A stretch of DNA of 64,000 nt from Squalus acanthias (Eukaryota), in the NCBI GenBank assembly GCA_030390025.1, contig CM059429.1:66960001-67024000 (forward strand). Reading direction: 5' to 3'. Both the position numbers and the translations under genes were made by a program. The notes under the pieces were generated by a model. The model worked only from the letters and a program-made list of their open reading frames with translations, did no database searches and was not told where the DNA came from. Positions 14,379-58,951 of the stretch are shown here, in pieces (positions within the stretch are counted from its first letter, which is position 1; every line of letters begins with the position of its first letter).

Positions 14379-14803
14379 CTGGAAAAAAAGCAGGAAATGG
14401 AATAGATTTTAAGGCAGGTGTAGGGGCTGGGAAATGGGGGAGGGGATGAAAGAACAAAAGGGAAGGTCAGTGATAGGACAGAAAGCAGGAGAGATTAAGA
14501 GACATTGAGAGACATTAAGAGACATTCAAGGCAAGAGGAGGTGGTAATGGGACAGGTTAAGGAACAAAGGATGGCTCTAGATGAAGTGTGAATTGCGCTG
14601 GCAGAATGAAGGACAGCTGCCATGTGGGAGGGAAGAAAAAAAGGGCCAAACAAAAAGTGTGGATAAAAAAAAATATATGATAGGGGCCGAGGTTACGTTA
14701 ACTCTGTTTCTCTCTCCACGGATGCTGCCTGGCCTGCTGAGTTTTTCCAGCGTTTTCTGTTGTTATTTCGGATTTCCAGCATCCGCAGTATTTTGCTATT
14801 GTA
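14379..14803. mobile_element. Penelope-derived insertion (inverted 3' region plus pLTR end) with 14-bp TSD
   Basis: atagtattttagta at 14365-14378 and 14804-14817; right part equals the pLTR end acgttaactctgtttctctctcc... Confidence 0.75.
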
Positions 14804-14980
14804 ATAGTATTTTAGTAATTGTGGCTACTATGCCTCTGCTAAGGGGCACACAAGGCACAGGTTTGCATCTGTGATGTCTCATGTGGCAATGCTCTTTATC
14901 TTCAGCTAGCCAGTGACCAAAGGCTGGGCAATCCCCAAAGAATAACAACAGTATGAAATGTTAATGTGCGCTACTCTGGA

Positions 14981-15124: not shown

Positions 15125-15447
15125 CACGGTAGAAGACACTAAAAACATCCCAATGATAATCAAGGGGCTATAGGGAGGGAGGAACTTAAAGCAATCTCCA
15201 TCATGAGAGAAAAAGTACTAGGCAAACTAATGGGACTAAAGGCTGACAAGTCCCCTGGACCTGATGGCCTGCATCCTAGGGTCTTAAAAGAAGTGGCTGC
15301 AGAGATAGTGGATGCGTTGGTTGTAATCTACCAAAATTCCCTGGATTTTGGAGAGGTCATGATGCGGAGATGCCGGTGTTGGACTGGGGTGGACAAAATT
15401 GAGAGGTCGCACAACACCAGGTTATAGTCCAACAGTTTTATTTGAAA

Positions 15448-15489
15448 TCACAAGCTTTCGGAGCTATCGATTGCCCCTTCCTCAGGTGA
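15448..15489 (-). ncRNA. Mirror hammerhead copy, on the UGGT1 sense strand
   Basis: Exact reverse complement of 16565-16606. Confidence 0.75.
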
Positions 15490-15826
15490 AGTAAATTAGA
15501 TACAGAATCGCCAAAGCATATATAGATAGAGAACAAAGCATGTGTACCTTACAATTGCAGACCACTAAATTAAATCATCCTGACTATCTGCCGAGGTGTG
15601 ATAAAGTTAATCAAGTCAGCCAGGAAGGTACCACATCAAAGACATAGCAAGATACAACTGAGACAATGAGGTGTAATCGCAGGGGTTCTAACGTGTCAAA
15701 AGCTGCCGTCTGTATGTAAAACGAAAAGCTTTAAAATTTTTACTTTTTTACTGGGAAAATGTTTACTTTTTTACTGGGAATCACATCTGTGAACAAGCCA
15801 ACAACGACTCGAGTCCGGATCACGTC

Positions 15827-16234
15827 TGCAAGACATGCCAGATCATCAACACGGATACCACCATCACACGTGAGGACACTAACCACCAGGTACATGGTAC
15901 ATACTCATGTGACTCGGCCAACGTTGTCTACCTCATACGTTGCAGGAAAGAATGCACCGCGGCATGGTACATCGGCGAGACCATGCAGACACTGAGACAA
16001 CGTATGAACGAGCACCGCGCAACAATCGCCAGGCAGGATTGTTACCTCCCAGTCGGGGAACACTTCAGCAGTCAAGGACATTCAGCCTCGGATCTGCGGG
16101 TAAGCGTTCTCCAAGGCAACCTTAGAAACACACGACAACGCAAAATCATCGAGCAGAAACTGATAGCCAAGTTCCGCACTCATGAAGACGGTCTCAACCG
16201 GGATCTTGGGTTTATGTCACGATACATGACGTGA
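15827..16234 (+). pseudogene. Open GIY-YIG endonuclease domain of a Penelope-like element (5'-truncated, no RT)
   Basis: CKTC...YSCDSANVVYLIRCRKECTAAWYIGETMQTLRQRMNEH...VGEHF...R..IEQKLIAKFRT..DGLN; no stops or frameshifts. Confidence 0.9.
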
Positions 16235-16564
16235 TCCGGACTCGAGTCGTCGTTGGCTTGTTCACAGATGTGATTCCCAGTAAAAAAGTAAAAATTTTCC
16301 CAGTAAAAAAGTAAAAATTTTAAAGCTTTTCATTTTACATACAGACGGCAGCTTTTGACACGTTAGAACCCCTGCGACTACACCTCATTGTCTCAGTTGT
16401 ATCTTGCTATGTCTTTGATGTGGTACCTTCCTGGCTGACTTGATTAACTTTATCACACCTCGGCAGATAGTCAGGATGATTTAATTTAGTGGTCTGCAAT
16501 TGTAAGGTACACATGCTTTGTTCTCTATCTATATATGCTTTGGCGATTCTGTATCTAATTTACT

Positions 16565-16606
16565 TCACCTGAGGAAGGGGCAATCGATAGCTCCGAAAGC
16601 TTGTGA
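16565..16606 (+). ncRNA. Minimal type I hammerhead ribozyme (Penelope pLTR)
   Basis: stem I UCAC/GUGA; CUGAGGA; stem II GGGGC-aaucgaua-GCUCC; GAAA; palindromic AGCU helix III; CUU triplet. Confidence 0.8.
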
Positions 16607-18829
16607 TTTCAAATAAAATTGTTGGACTATAACCTGGTGTTGTGCGACCTCTCAATTTTGGAGAGGTCCCAGTGGATTGGAAAACTGCAAATGTAACGCC
16701 ACTATTCAAGAAAGGAGGGAGACAGAAAGCAGGAAACTATAGGCCAGTTAGCTTAACATCTGTCATTGGGAAAATGCTGGAATCCATTATTAAGGAGGTA
16801 ATAGTAGGACATTTAGAAAATCATAAGACAATCAAGCAGAGTCAACATGGTTTTATGAAAGGGAAATCGTGTTTGACAAATTTGCTAGAGTTCTTTGAGG
16901 ATGTAACGAGCAGGGTGGATAAAGGGGAACCAGTAGATGTTGTGTATTTGGATTTCCAGAAGGCATTCGATAAGGTGCCACATAAAGGTTCCTGCACAAG
17001 ATAAGAGCACACGGGGTTGGGGGTAATATATTGGCATGGATAGGGGATTGGCTAACTATCAGAAAACAGAGAGTCGGGATAAACAGCTCATTTTCCGGTT
17101 GGCAATCAGTAACTACTGGGGGTGCCGCAGGGATCAGTGCTGGGGCCTCAACTATTTACAATCTATATTAATGACTTGGATGAAGGGACCGAGTGTACTG
17201 TAGCCAAATTTGCTGATGATACAAAGATAGGTGGGTTAGCAAGTTGTGAGGAGGACACAAAGAGTCTGCAAAGGGATATAGATAGGTTAAGTGAGTGGGC
17301 AAAAATTTGGCAGATGGAGTATAATGTGGGAAAATGTGAGGTTATCCACTTTGGAAGGAAGAATGAAAAAGCAAATTATTATTTAAATGGAGTGAGACTA
17401 CAAAATGCTGCGGTACAAAGGGATCTGGGGGTCCTAGTACATGAAACACAAAAAGTTAGCATGCAGGTACAGCAAGTAATTAGGAAGGCTAATGGAATGT
17501 TGGCCTTTATTGCAAGGGGTATGGAGTATAAAAGTAGGGAAGTTTTGATGCAACTTTACAAGGCGCTGGTGAGACCGCACCTGGAGTACTGCGTACAGTT
17601 TTAGTCTCCATATTTAAGGAAGGATATACTTGCACTGGAGGCAGTACAGAGAAGGTTCACTAGGTTGATTCCTGGGATGAAGGGGTTCATGTATGACGAA
17701 AGGTTGAGCAGATTGGGCCTATACTCATTGGAGTTTAGAAGAATGAGAGGTGATCTTATTGAAACATATAAGATTCTGAGGGAGATTGACAGGGTGGATG
17801 CTGAGAGGATGTTTCCCCTTGTGGGGCATAGTTTCAGAATAAGGGGTCGCCCGTTTAAGACGGAGATGAGGAGGAATTTCTTCTCTGAGGGTTGCGAATC
17901 TTTGGAATTCTCTACCCCAGGGAGCTGTGGAGGTGGAGTCATTGAATATATTCAAGGCGGAGATTGACAGACATTTGAACTACAAGGGAGTCAAGGGGTA
18001 TGGGGAGAGAGCGGGAAAGTGGTGTTGAGGCCAAGATTGGATCAGCCATGATCTTATTGAATAGTGGAGCAGGCTCGGGGGGCCAATTGGCCTACTCCTG
18101 CTCCTGTTTCTTATGTTCTTTATGTTCTTAAAAAGGGAAATAAATCAGGAAATATTCCATGAAATAATCAACTTCACGTAAACACCGTCATAAAGCTCAG
18201 TGTAGATCCCAGAGGTTAATCTCTGCTGGTTAGTGGATTGTGGAATAAATTAAGCAGGGCTCTATCTTTTTCAAAGCGAGTGCTTTTAGTGCAAAAGTTA
18301 ATGGAATATGAGCAGCACTGAAAATTTAATCTGCTCAGAACTTAATTTATTCCATCTGAGTCCAGGACAAAACAATGCGCAAAAATCAAAATTACTAGCA
18401 TTAAGACACAAAGGCTTTAGGCATGTCAAGTAAGTGAATGCAAACAGACTACAACATCCAGTGAAATACTTGGTTTGCAGCACACTGGAGCACTATCCTA
18501 CATGGTAGGATGGAGGTGTCCATCGCTTCTTTCAGGCTGTCACCTAGATCGCAGTTTCCTGATCATGCAGAGGGCCAGAGTGGAGACCAGGTACTGCCTC
18601 AAGAGTGAGGATCACTTTAGCTCAGCTCCACATAACTGGTTTCAGACTTATACTAATAAAGACTTGAGAGTAGGTTCCCAACCTGCCTGTGGATAGTGTA
18701 TGGTGACCAACAGAAAGGGAAGGGACAAAAAAAAACCTTTGAACAGGGAGTCTAGCCCTCATATTTACAGACTAAATCTGAACTTTGTCCTCATTTTCAC
18801 CACAAACTAATAAGGAAATAATAAGGAAA

Positions 18830-19856: not shown

Positions 19857-20040
19857 GAAAGAGAAACAGAGTTAATGTTTCAGGTCGATGACCTTTCATC
19901 AGAACGTTCTGACGAAAGGTCATCGACCTGAAACGTTAACTCTGTTTCTCTCTCCACAGATGCTGCCTGACCTGCTGAGTATTTCCAGTATTTTCTGTTT
20001 TTATTTCAGATTTCCAGCATCTGCGGTATTTTGCTTTTGT
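19857..20040 (+). mobile_element. Short Penelope-derived insertion with a ~100-bp palindromic double hammerhead and 15-bp TSD
   Basis: Palindrome centred at agaac|gttct (19905/19906); actg(t/c)atattctatg at 19842-19856 and 20041-20055. Confidence 0.85.
19906..19940 (+). ncRNA. Minimal hammerhead ribozyme
   Basis: GUU-CUGACGA-A-AGGU caucg ACCU-GAAA-CG-UU-AAC. Confidence 0.75.
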
Positions 20041-27750: not shown

Positions 27751-27914
27751 AATAAGCACATCTGGTAAGTGTGCTAACTCAGAATGTGCTATCTGTTCCC
27801 TTCACAAAGCAAGGAGAACAAAACTCCCAGAATCTGAAGCAGAACAGTTGCCAGAATAAAGTCTTCATTAAGCACCAGCACAGACAAACGTGGTGAAAAT
27901 TAATTTGTGATATA

Positions 27915-29738: not shown

Positions 29739-29833
29739 GTTCTGACGAAAGGTCACCGACCTGAAACATTAACTCTGTTTCTCTCTCCACAGATGTTGCC
29801 TGACCTGCTGAGTATTTCCAGCATTTTCTGTTT
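29739..29833 (+). mobile_element. Short Penelope-derived pLTR copy with hammerhead (29739-29773)
   Basis: gttctgacgaaaggtcaccgacctgaaacattaac...gacctgctgagtatttccagcattttctg. Confidence 0.8.
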
Positions 29834-42244: not shown

Positions 42245-43480
42245 TATTATTCGTTCATGGGATGTGGGTGTCGCTGGCAAGACCAGCATTTATTGCCCAT
42301 CCTTAGTTGCCCTCGAGAAGGTGGTGGTGAACTGCCTTCTTGGACTGCTGCAGTCTGTGTGGTGAAGGTACTCCCAAAGTGCTGTTTGGGAGGGAGTTCC
42401 CGGATTTTGACCCAGTGACGATGAGGTGGTGGATGGGGTGCTTTGTCTTGGATGGTGTCGAGCTTCTTGAGTGTTGTTGGAGCTGCACTCATCCAGGCAA
42501 GTGGAGAGTATTCCATCACACTCCTGACTTGTGCCTTGTAGATGGTAGAAAGGCTTTGGTGAGTCAGGAGGTGAGACACTCGCCGCAGAATACCCAGCCT
42601 CTGACCTGCTTTTGTTGCCACAGTATTTTTGTGGCTGGTCCAGTTAAGTTTCTGGTCAATGGTGACCCCCCAGGATGTTGCTGGTGGGGGATTCGGCGAT
42701 CGTAATGCCATTCAATGTCAAGGGTCGGTGGTTAGACGCTCGCTTGTTGGAGATAGTCATTGCCTGGCACTTCTGTGGCGCGAATATCACCTGCCACTTA
42801 TCAGTCCAAGCCTGAATGTCGTCCAGGTCTTGCTGCATGCGGGCATCGACTGCTTCATTATCTGAGGAGTTGCAAATGGCACTGAACACTGTGCAGTCAT
42901 CAGCGAACTTCCCCACTTCTGACCTTATGTTGGAGGGAAGGTCATTGATGAAGCAGCTGAAGATGGTTGGGCCTACAACACTACTCTGAGGAACTCCTGC
43001 AGCGATGTCCTGGGGCTGTGATGATTGACCTTCAACCAGCACAACCATCATCCTTTGTGCTAGGTATGACTCCAGCCACTGGAGAGTTTTCCCCCCCGAT
43101 TCCCATTGACTTCAGTTTTACTAGGGCTCCTTGATGCCACACTCGGTCAAATGCTGCCTTGATGTCAAGGGCAGTCACTCTCACCTCACCCTTGGAATTC
43201 AGCTCTTTTGTCCATGTTTGGACCAAGGCTGTAATGAGGTCTGAAGCCGAGTGGTCCTGGCGGAACCCAAACTGGGCATCAGTGAGCAGGTTATTGGTGA
43301 GTAAGTGCTGCTTGATAGCACTGTCGATGACACATTCCATCACTTTGCTGATGATTGAGAGTAGACTGATGGGGCAGTAATTGGCCGGTTTGGATTTGTC
43401 CTCCTTTTAGTGGACAGGACATACCTGGGCAGTTTTCCACATTGTCGGTTAGATGCCAGTGTTATAGCTGTACTGGAACA
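42245..43480 (-). mobile_element. Second-family LINE with RT core
   Basis: QFGFRQDHS...ALDIKAAFDRVWHQG...AGVPQ.SV.GPTIFSCFINDL...FADD. Confidence 0.92.
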
Positions 43481-44657: not shown

Positions 44658-44743
44658 CTGAGTGGGATGTCATTAGTATAAAACATTTCAGCCGTTTTCA
44701 GCAGCTCAGGAGTGCTCTCATCAGTTGGGTCGACAACAAGCAC
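44658..44743 (-). CDS. UGGT1: UGGT1 exon (86 nt): VLVVDPTDESTPELLKTAEMFYTNDIPLR
   Basis: tag|...|gtgtgt; V..VDP...TAEMF...IPLR. Confidence 0.94.
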
Positions 44744-57247: not shown

Positions 57248-58400
57248 ACTTCTTAGGCAGTCCCTCGGAACCGAGGATGACTTGCTTCCACATTAAAAAT
57301 GAGTTCTCAGGTGACTGATGAGTCCAATGCGGGACCTACAGTCTCTGTCACAGGTGGAGCAGACGGTGGTTGAAGGGGCGGGTGGGTGGGGTGCTTGGGT
57401 TGACGTGCGCTCCTTCCGCTGTTTGCGCTTGGCTTCCGCTTGCTCCCGGCGAAGAGACTCGAGGTGTTCGGCGCCTGCAGTCTTGGGCCAGGGATTCCCA
57501 GGTGTCGGTGGGGATGTTGCACTTTTTCAAGGAGGCTTTGAGGGTGTCCTTGAAGCGTTTCCTCTGCCCACCTGGGGCTCTCTTGCCGTGTCGGAGCTCC
57601 GAGTAGAGCGCTTGTTTTGGGAGTCTCGTATCGGGCATGCGGACGATGTGGCCCGTCCATCGGAGCTGATCGAGCGTGGTCAAAGCTTCGATGCTGGGGA
57701 TGTTGGCCTGAGCGAGAACACTGACGTTGGTGCGCCTATCCTGCCAATGGATTTGCAGGATCTTGCGAAGGCAGCGTTGGTGGTACCTCTCCAGTGCTTT
57801 GAGGTGCCTGCTGTACATGGTCCATGTCTCTGAAGCATACAGGAGGGCGGGTATCACTACTGCTCTGTAGACCATGAGCTTGGTGCTGGGTTTGAGGTCC
57901 TGGTCTTCAAACACTCTCTTCCTCAGGCGACCGAAGGCTGCACTGGCACACTGAAGGCGGTGTTTGACTTCGTCATCGACGTCTGCCCTTGTTGACAGTA
58001 GGCTCCCGAGGTATAGAAAGTGGTCCACGTTGTCCAAGGCCTCGTCATGGTTTTTGATAATCGGGGAGCAGTACTGTGTGGCGGGGGCAGGTTGGTAGAG
58101 GACCTTTGTCTTACGGATGTTTAGTGTAAGGCCCATGCTCTCGTACGCTTCGGTGAAGGTGTTGACGATGGTTTGGAGTTCGGCCTCAGAGTGTGCGCAG
58201 ACGCAAGTGCCGTCTGCACACTGTAATTCGATGACAGAGGATGGGACGACCTTGGATCTGGACTGGAGGCGACGGAGGTTGAACAGTTTCCCGTTTGTTC
58301 TGTAGATTAGCTCCACTCCAGCGGGGAGCTTACTGAGGGTGAGATGGAGCATTGCAGCCAGGAAGATTGAAAAGAGCATTGGTGCGATGACACCTGCTTC
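57248..58400 (-). mobile_element. RTE-clade LINE, 5'-truncated
   Basis: APMLFSIF...ELQCADG (degenerate YADD)...GLTLNIRKTK...YLGS...LRWTGHIVRMPDTRLPKQALYSEL...GGQRKRFKDTLK; end gagggactgcctaagaag. Confidence 0.93.
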
Positions 58401-58951
58401 CACACCACAAAGCTGAATGCAACATTGCAAACTTCGCAAATACTCATGCAATCTCTACTCCTTTTAATCCCCATTCTCTCCTACCATTCTGTCTGAAATT
58501 TGTAATGTCACTGTGTGTTGCTGCTGCTATACACCAAGTGTAAGAAAGTGAGCTGGAATAAGAACAACCAGAGCAGCTTGAACAGCAAGCAGTCCCAGAA
58601 ATGTATGTCAATGGGGCTAAAATTGGGGTCAGCACCCCCACATCATGGCTCCCATATGAAAATGGCCACTTAGGCAAGGTACCAGAGAGTGACCTGTGGA
58701 ATCATATACCAGCAAGGTTGTAATGCCTTGCAGAGGGGAAGATAGAGAATTGGCAGGGAAAAATGTGGTTAATGAAAAGTAAATCACCTTATTTAGCAAG
58801 TGGAACTTTCCCAATCCTAATACAGGACCACTTTGACAATACTTGAAAGGAGTTCCCCAGATGACATGACTGACTTATCAACAGGAAGTGAATATTAATA
58901 CACGTGCAACTTCGGAACAGGTTTCATCACAGAGCAGCTTGTTTTACTTAC

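What the first reader, a model, noticed from the sequence alone, without database searches (positions are those of the whole stretch)
15345..16668. Young RT-less Penelope-like cassette: open GIY-YIG nuclease domain between 433-bp inverted, hammerhead-bearing repeats
Seen: near-identical inverted arms (15394-15826 / 16228-16660, ~5 mismatches), each with an intact minimal hammerhead. They enclose an uninterrupted 135-aa CxxC + GIY-YIG domain, with no RT. The left arm has a ~35-nt extra tail (15359-15393), and the unit splits a CR1 ORF with a 14-bp duplication. Established: Penelope-like elements have pLTRs with hammerheads, 3' tails and frequent inverted 5' ends; RT-less, endonuclease-only PLE relatives (Hydra) have been reported. 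Inference: this is either a one-off 5'-truncated/inverted insertion or a copy of a fixed non-autonomous unit that looks like a TIR transposon. No start codon precedes the VY-YIG motif, which favours truncation.
Basis: partly seen in the sequence, partly recalled or inferred. Interest (0 to 1): 0.7.

Follow-up and report, generated by a model that had tools for sequence, protein, structure and literature searches.

The report
Truncated head-to-head Penelope retroelement copy
This is a shortened, likely dead copy of a very common Penelope-like jumping gene whose near-identical sisters still carry the reverse transcriptase; its end sits twice in mirror image, likely because it was copied into both cut DNA strands when it landed, a layout already published, so it is ordinary.

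Summary
In detail: 433-bp inverted arms (5 differences), two minimal hammerhead motifs, a one-sided 35-nt tail, a 135-codon open GIY-YIG fragment and a 14-bp direct repeat inside a CR1. The internal junction occurs once in 3.7 Gb. Forty near-identical sister loci start at 39 different points; 22 run past the RT active site, and one has an 881-codon RT+EN frame whose last 135 residues equal the window's. Hydra elements carry RT. So this is a one-off, 5'-truncated, head-to-head insertion of an abundant Neptune-like family (17,923 exact tail matches). Sister copies suggest how it formed: one tailed and one untailed end (12 of 12), mostly 12-bp duplications, a weak symmetric target motif TGNC-N12-GNCA, and repeated hits at this CR1 site. 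That fits two cDNAs primed from the two cut strands (inferred). The layout is published, and this scan noted the same layout, target motif and CR1 hot spot before at other loci of this genome. Low interest.

The parts
15143..15344 (+). Host CR1 LINE ORF2 piece left of the insertion (approximate start)
   Evidence: Open frame 15143.., same phase as the right-hand RT frame; this piece alone has no Pfam hit
15345..15358 (.). Left copy of the 14-bp target repeat; last 4 nt also match the element just after its tail
15359..15393 (-). 35-nt PLE tail; in natural tandem copy L070 it leads straight into the ORF's ATG (+461 from the stop codon)
15394..15826 (-). Inverted arm: element 3' end from 6 nt before the end of the stop codon; tailed (long) end
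15448..15489 (-). Minimal type I hammerhead motif, left copy
15824..15827 (.). Head-to-head junction with 2-3 nt overlap; unique in the genome
15827..16234 (+). 5'-truncated GIY-YIG endonuclease frame (135 aa + stop), identical in protein to residues 747-881 of RT+EN copy L058; no start codon before YIG
16228..16660 (+). 3' pseudo-LTR, untailed (short) end
16530..16566 (+). TATA-like (16530-16536) and initiator-like (16560-16566) motifs; sister copies often begin here. Promoter role inferred; it points away from the EN frame in both arms
16565..16606 (+). Minimal type I hammerhead motif, right copy (4-bp stem I, core, extra A, 5-bp stem II, palindromic stem III; predicted cut after 16602)
16655..16668 (.). 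Right copy of the 14-bp target repeat; first 6 nt also match the element
16669..18130 (+). Host CR1 LINE, rest of ORF2 (broken into several frames) and 3' end (approximate)

Best explanation
This is a single 5'-truncated, head-to-head insertion of an abundant RT-plus-endonuclease Penelope-like family (Neptune-like by motifs), likely dead, and likely made when the enzyme of an intact copy cut both strands of a CR1 element and copied the element's RNA from each cut end. Shown: the pieces, the unique junction, the RT-bearing sisters, one tailed and one untailed end, a duplication usually 12 bp long, a weak symmetric target motif. Inferred: (1) two nicks about 12 nt apart leave two 3' ends; (2) one primes at the RNA site by the ORF start codon (tailed end), the other about 36 nt upstream (untailed end); (3) the cDNAs stopped after about 470 and 835 nt and were joined through 2-3 matching bases; (4) five substitutions accumulated afterwards. 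The endonuclease frame is open because the copy is young; with no start codon before YIG, half a linker zinc finger and the promoter-like motifs pointing away from it, it is predicted to make no protein.
For: Junction: 1 of 41 listed matches spans it (40 of 252 candidates scored); pattern search gives 1 match in 3.7 Gb at up to 2 mismatches. Family size: 17,923 exact tail 30-mers, 5,962 exact ORF-end 30-mers. 40 sister loci (all 37 non-self loci, 3): 39 distinct 5' ends from -184 to -2645, none at the window's; 22 of 40 pass the YIDD codon. L058: 881-codon frame with RVT_1 hit (E 1.5e-8), 99.5% DNA identity to the window. Among the first 100 matches listed I count 20 head-to-head pairs, each with a different spacing (282-4487 bp). 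One tailed plus one untailed end in 12 of 12 two-ended inversions; in 70 unselected tailed ends 47 have an inverted partner and none of the 46 adjacent partners measured carries a second tail. The tailed arm is the longer in 6 of 12 and 6 of 13 (2 ties) pairs. Duplication exactly 12 bp in 14 of 27 and 27 of 49 sites with one. TG-N16-CA in 17 of 27 discovery and 13 of 49 held-out sites (random controls mean 0.24 and 0.43, max 3 and 5 of 2000). Each of the 5 arm differences departs from the family majority. PMC11167929: a purified PLE protein cuts and extends both strands, starts at two internal RNA sites that bound the tail, and is predicted to be a dimer.
Against: The two-primer step is read from end products only. 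A longer hairpin trimmed later by deletion would leave a similar junction. 14 of 41 and 21 of 70 loci gave no clear duplication. The target motif is weak: 14 of 49 held-out sites match neither half, and the window site has TG and CA but not the inner C/G. Arm lengths are not correlated in 13 young pairs (rho 0.19, p 0.54), so nothing shows the two cDNAs were made in step. The in vitro element of PMC11167929 is of another clade and prefers ATT. No RNA evidence on this locus.
Confidence: 0.9

Rival explanations
1. A fixed, mobile endonuclease-only unit that behaves like a terminal-inverted-repeat transposon.
For: Outward look: long inverted arms, an open nuclease frame, a target duplication. pLTRs alone can mobilise passenger DNA in trans in a rotifer (PMC3846280 passage).
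Against: Junction found once; no fixed unit length among 20 head-to-head pairs or 12 two-ended inversions; no start codon before YIG, truncated linker; the loci read that share the window's outer tail junction all have other inner junctions (11 of 11 non-self); Hydra has RT.
Confidence: 0.01
2. Same dead insertion, but the mirror arm arose by fold-back (self-priming) of one cDNA or later copying, as proposed for inverted PLE junctions.
For: PMC3846280 (passage) reads palindromic inverted junctions as self-priming; several tiny sister units have nearly equal arms.
Against: A fold-back from the tailed cDNA needs the tailed arm to reach at least as far 5' as the other; in the window it is 403 nt shorter, and it is shorter in 6 of 12 and 5 of 13 pairs. 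A fold-back from the untailed cDNA cannot add the tail. It needs an extra deletion here.
Confidence: 0.12
3. Two independent insertions at one hot spot, facing opposite ways.
For: This CR1 site is reused: 33 exact tail-plus-site matches; 8 of 12 read lie at this CR1 position.
Against: One duplication encloses both arms with no target DNA between them; the one-tail rule (12 of 12; 46 of 46) is not expected from independent events.
Confidence: 0.03
4. The open nuclease frame is kept and used by the host.
For: 135 codons without a stop.
Against: Zero amino-acid differences from a mobile sister, 99.5% DNA identity: age, not selection, explains it; no start codon.
Confidence: 0.01

Closest known systems
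Canonical EN+ Penelope-like insertion with inverted 5'-truncated copy and one-sided 30-40-bp tail (PMC8557442 Fig. 2 legend, passage; Adineta Pen2a, PMC3846280 passages; D. virilis Penelope form C, PMC2377424 passage)
   Same: Inverted 5'-truncated copy, one-sided tail, target duplication, C-terminal GIY-YIG, hammerhead in the pLTR.
   Different: Here both halves are cut so short that no RT remains; duplication mode 12 bp (8-10 bp in the rotifer examples read).
Neptune (or Nematis) clade PLEs
   Same: Parent copy L058 has GLKF, DKG, YIDD, a C-x4-C-xx-C linker and two Cys inside the GIY-YIG core (motifs as defined in PMC8557442 passages).
   Different: No microsatellite targeting seen among the sites listed; clade not tested by a tree.
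PAc, Poseidon element of Anolis (PMC11167929, parts 1-2 of 4)
   Same: Two fixed 3' ends that bound the tail; both strands primed in vitro; hammerhead near the ORF start.
   Different: PAc starts RT 111-118 nt inside the ORF and cuts at ATT; here the tail ends at the start codon and the target bias is a split palindrome.
Minimal hammerheads of metazoan PLEs (PMC4209133, part 1 of 4 and passages)
   Same: Short helix I, unpaired base before helix II, palindromic helix III; opposite-strand pairs close together were already reported and put down to truncated PLEs.
   Different: Cores here are about 1.1 kb apart (100-700 bp in that paper); helix II is 5 bp.
Hydra clade (PMC8557442 section 11)
   Same: C-terminal GIY-YIG, hammerheads.
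   Different: Hydra has RT, lacks CCHH, has a CxCX5C linker and inserts in (TA)n: not a precedent for an RT-less unit.

Membership tests
EN+ Penelope-like element (parent family) | One ORF with RT and C-terminal GIY-YIG | tested here: met
   L058, 881 codons, RVT_1 hit; its last 135 aa equal the window's GIY-YIG fragment. Pfam did not report GIY-YIG on the whole L058 protein at E 0.1.
EN+ Penelope-like element (this copy as an autonomous element) | RT domain and start codon in this copy | tested here: not met
   Only the last 135 codons remain; first Met after YIG
EN+ Penelope-like element | pLTR in partial-tandem or inverted arrangement | tested here: met
   Window inverted; L070 partial tandem
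EN+ Penelope-like element | 30-40-bp tail at one end | tested here: met
   35 nt, left end only; 12 of 12 two-ended sisters likewise
EN+ Penelope-like element | Hammerhead motif in the pLTR | tested here: met
   Core and stems kept in the common variants; changes fall mainly on N7, loop II, H17, with a double change in stem I
EN+ Penelope-like element | Hammerhead self-cleavage | not testable with these tools
   Needs an assay; PAc needed protein
EN+ Penelope-like element | CCHH motif with two Cys inside the GIY-YIG core | tested here: met
   C-x3-C between VVY and YIG and downstream His residues read from the translation; His assignment by eye
Neptune/Nematis | CX2-5CxxC linker upstream of EN | tested here: met
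   In L058 at residue 742; the window keeps only CxxC
Neptune | RT phylogeny with named Neptune elements | not tested
   No named reference proteins were fetched
Neptune | Microsatellite insertion bias (hypothesised in print) | tested here: not met
   Target sites listed are not simple repeats
Hydra | No CCHH; CxCX5C linker; (TA)n targets | tested here: not met
Non-autonomous TIR unit / MITE | Several copies with the same ends and inner structure at different sites | tested here: not met
Non-LTR retrozyme | Tandem direct repeats each with a hammerhead (10.64898/2026.07.22.740005, part 1 of 5) | tested here: not met
   The two motifs are inverted, not tandem

The most novel reading that the evidence does not exclude
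This copy is a clean footprint of a two-ended integration: a dimeric Penelope enzyme reads a split palindrome (TGNC-N12-GNCA), nicks both strands 12 nt apart and starts one cDNA at each of two fixed RNA sites, one per strand, so that head-to-head units with exactly one tail are the normal product, and the commonest tiny units are run-offs to a transcription start just before the hammerhead.
Probability: 0.5. Interest if true: 0.45.

Novelty: new member of a known kind. Interest (0 to 1): 0.14.

Why it matters
As a locus it matters little: it is one of thousands of stumps in a published layout. Had it been a mobile endonuclease-only unit it would have been a new kind of element; that is refuted. 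What remains of value is the family: young, with nearly 18,000 tail ends and near-complete open frames, it gives large numbers for the open question of how Penelope-like elements integrate (fixed stagger, symmetric site, two priming sites). This scan had already noted those points at other loci of the genome; my tests repeat them on separately drawn loci.

Tried and rejected
Rfam at gathering and E-value thresholds found no hammerhead; single-strand folding is no better than shuffles. Correlation of arm lengths: not found. Junction check in public runs: all runs offered were contigs; none of the listed contigs bridges 15826/15827 in 4 runs (one search likewise uninformative); the tool says a hole proves nothing, so neither assembly error nor absence in other individuals is shown. 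Transcription start and expression could not be read: no raw RNA reads were offered. The protein Atlas gave no answer. 5' ends at the predicted hammerhead cut (+369) are few (L136, L140 exactly): no claim of cleavage in vivo. Microhomology at the outer joints (6 and 4 nt here) is at the high end; sisters mostly show 0-2 nt and I ran no control, so primer annealing is not claimed. Other spacings (TG-N12/14/18-24-CA) gave at most 1 full match per set. No tree and no protein-database search were run, as they would not change the verdict. No complex was folded.

Full report
Observation. Rfam misses the hammerheads. Across 110 fetched loci 141 matches to my motif expression were tallied, a few of them chance; in the common variants the core and both stems are kept while N7, loop II and H17 vary, with one double change in stem I. 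The genome is 3.7 Gb; earlier notes call it shark-type, which I did not test.

Is it a fixed RT-less unit? No. An 80-base query across the inner junction matched end to end only itself among 41 listed matches (40 of 252 candidates scored), and a 29-base pattern with up to 2 mismatches, counted over the whole assembly, matched once. I fetched 40 sister loci: all 37 non-self loci and 3. Mapped on natural copy L058, their main pieces are 99-100% identical to it and begin at 39 different points between -184 and -2645 from the stop codon, none at the window's -409; 22 of 40 pass the RT YIDD codon. L058 holds an 881-codon frame with an RVT_1 hit, and its last 135 residues equal the window's. L070 shows the usual pLTR-ORF-pLTR tandem; there the tail leads straight into the start codon. 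The family is large: 17,923 exact tail 30-mers and 5,962 exact ORF-end 30-mers; among the first 100 of the latter I count by eye 20 head-to-head pairs, all with different spacings. The precedent cited is mistaken: Hydra elements encode RT and lack CCHH (PMC8557442 section 11).

Is the nuclease made? Unlikely. The first Met follows the YIG motif, the first Cys of the C-x4-C-xx-C linker is missing, and the promoter-like motifs in each arm face away from the frame. Each of the five arm differences departs from the family majority (shared by at most 2 of 45-63 copies), as expected of mutation after insertion, so youth explains the open frame.

How it formed. Shown: 3' ends fall in two classes, about +421 to +431 and +454 to +469, apart from one tandem read-through (5 ends without the anchor were left out there and placed). 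All 12 two-ended inversions, the window included, have one of each (about 2e-4 if ends were independent and even). In an unselected set, the first 70 tail matches on contig C1, 47 have an inverted partner, and none of the 46 adjacent partners measured reaches the tail. The tailed arm reaches further 5' in 6 of 12 and 6 of 13 pairs. Duplications were found at 27 of 41 and 49 of 70 loci, exactly 12 bp in 14 and 27 of these. TG-N16-CA around the duplication: 17 of 27 in the discovery set and 13 of 49 held out, against random means of 0.24 and 0.43. After removing repeated contexts, 23 held-out 12-bp sites show T-4 12, G-3 14, C-1 14, G+13 14, C+15 11, A+16 10 of 23 (p 1e-4 to 0.06, uncorrected). 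The bias is weak: 14 of 49 held-out sites match neither half. The window's CR1 position is reused: 33 exact tail-plus-site matches; of 12 read, 8 (the window among them) lie at this CR1 position, 3 at a related CR1 sequence and 1 elsewhere, and none of the other 11 has the window's inner junction. Inferred: two nicks about 12 nt apart leave two 3' ends; each primes a cDNA, one at each RNA site; the cDNAs are joined through 2-3 matching bases. This agrees with PMC11167929 (parts 1-2 of 4 read). Fold-back, proposed in PMC3846280 (passages), needs an extra deletion here because the tailed arm is the shorter by 403 nt; I cannot exclude that.

A side result. Of 42 5' ends scored as young (at least 96% to L058; a few are short alignments of older copies), 14 fall at +322 to +337, a rate of 3.4 per 100 nt per copy at risk against 0.09-1.15 elsewhere. 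A TATA-like motif at +296 and an initiator-like motif with A at +328 lie there (7 initiator-like matches in the arm, so the motif alone is weak). D. virilis Penelope starts transcription in the pLTR (PMC2377424 passages). Run-off to the RNA's 5' end is a likely reading; stalling at the ribozyme fold is the rival. Untested.

Comparison. The layout (inverted 5'-truncated copy, one-sided tail) is drawn as typical in PMC8557442 (passages), and opposite-strand hammerhead pairs were put down to truncated PLEs in PMC4209133 (part 1 of 4 and passages). By motifs the parent is Neptune- or Nematis-like; no tree was built. Searches listed no paper whose title or abstract opening describes a symmetric PLE target motif, and 'twin priming' had no occurrence in the PLE papers listed; the library lacks most subscription papers, Repbase was not seen, and I read no supplements (those of PMC8557442 and PMC11167929 may bear on clade and target preference). 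The retrozyme preprint 10.64898/2026.07.22.740005 was read in part 1 of 5; other papers were seen as listings only. This scan's earlier notes record the same layout, the symmetric motif, the CR1 hot spot and the two-primer reading at other loci of this genome (a word search found none); my reading and the motif lead were written down before those look-ups.

Verdict. Real and ordinary: a young, truncated, head-to-head PLE stump. Interest 0.14.

Noticed in passing
window 19874-19937; also 29742-29770 and 44682-44724: A second, sequence-unrelated hammerhead family: a tiny head-to-head pair at 19874-19902 (-) / 19909-19937 (+) inside a ~200-bp palindrome-like unit, plus single cores at 29742 (+) and 44682 (-). 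A related arm without a core match appears near 14690-14810.
   Followed up: partly
window 16530-16571 and sister loci L092-L161: 5' ends of young sister copies pile up at +322..+337, just before hammerhead stem I and about 30 nt after a TATA-like motif: candidate transcription start.
   Followed up: partly
L162-L173; window 15345-15358: The CR1 site that encodes ...G-E-V-P... is a hot spot: 33 exact tail-plus-site matches. Other contexts recur too, e.g. in L055/L073/L074/L077/L120 and L061/L072/L078/L118/L158.
   Followed up: partly
L059, L063, L083: A second kind of inversion: the inverted piece is internal ORF sequence without its own 3' end (3 of 40 sisters; L064 has a pLTR piece ending at +381), like LINE-1 twin-priming products (recalled comparison).
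   Followed up: no
L058:2709-5351; L070:2088-5839: Near-complete copies exist: L058 has an 881-codon open frame lacking about the first 12 codons; L070 is a full pLTR-ORF-pLTR tandem with a broken frame.
   Followed up: partly
L057, L102, L123, L126: Several tailed or short ends are followed by the same flank beginning like the ORF start and then diverging; L057 shows a 34-bp direct repeat. May be another repeat that targets or captures the PLE tail.
   Followed up: no
window 16274-16319 and 15733-15778: A 23-bp tandem duplication inside the pLTR, present in both arms and in L058.
   Followed up: no
window 57348-58454 (-): 368-codon open frame that reads like a LINE (RTE-type, by recall) reverse transcriptase C-terminal part; other LINE fragments at 27911, 35325, 42247-43111.
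   Followed up: no
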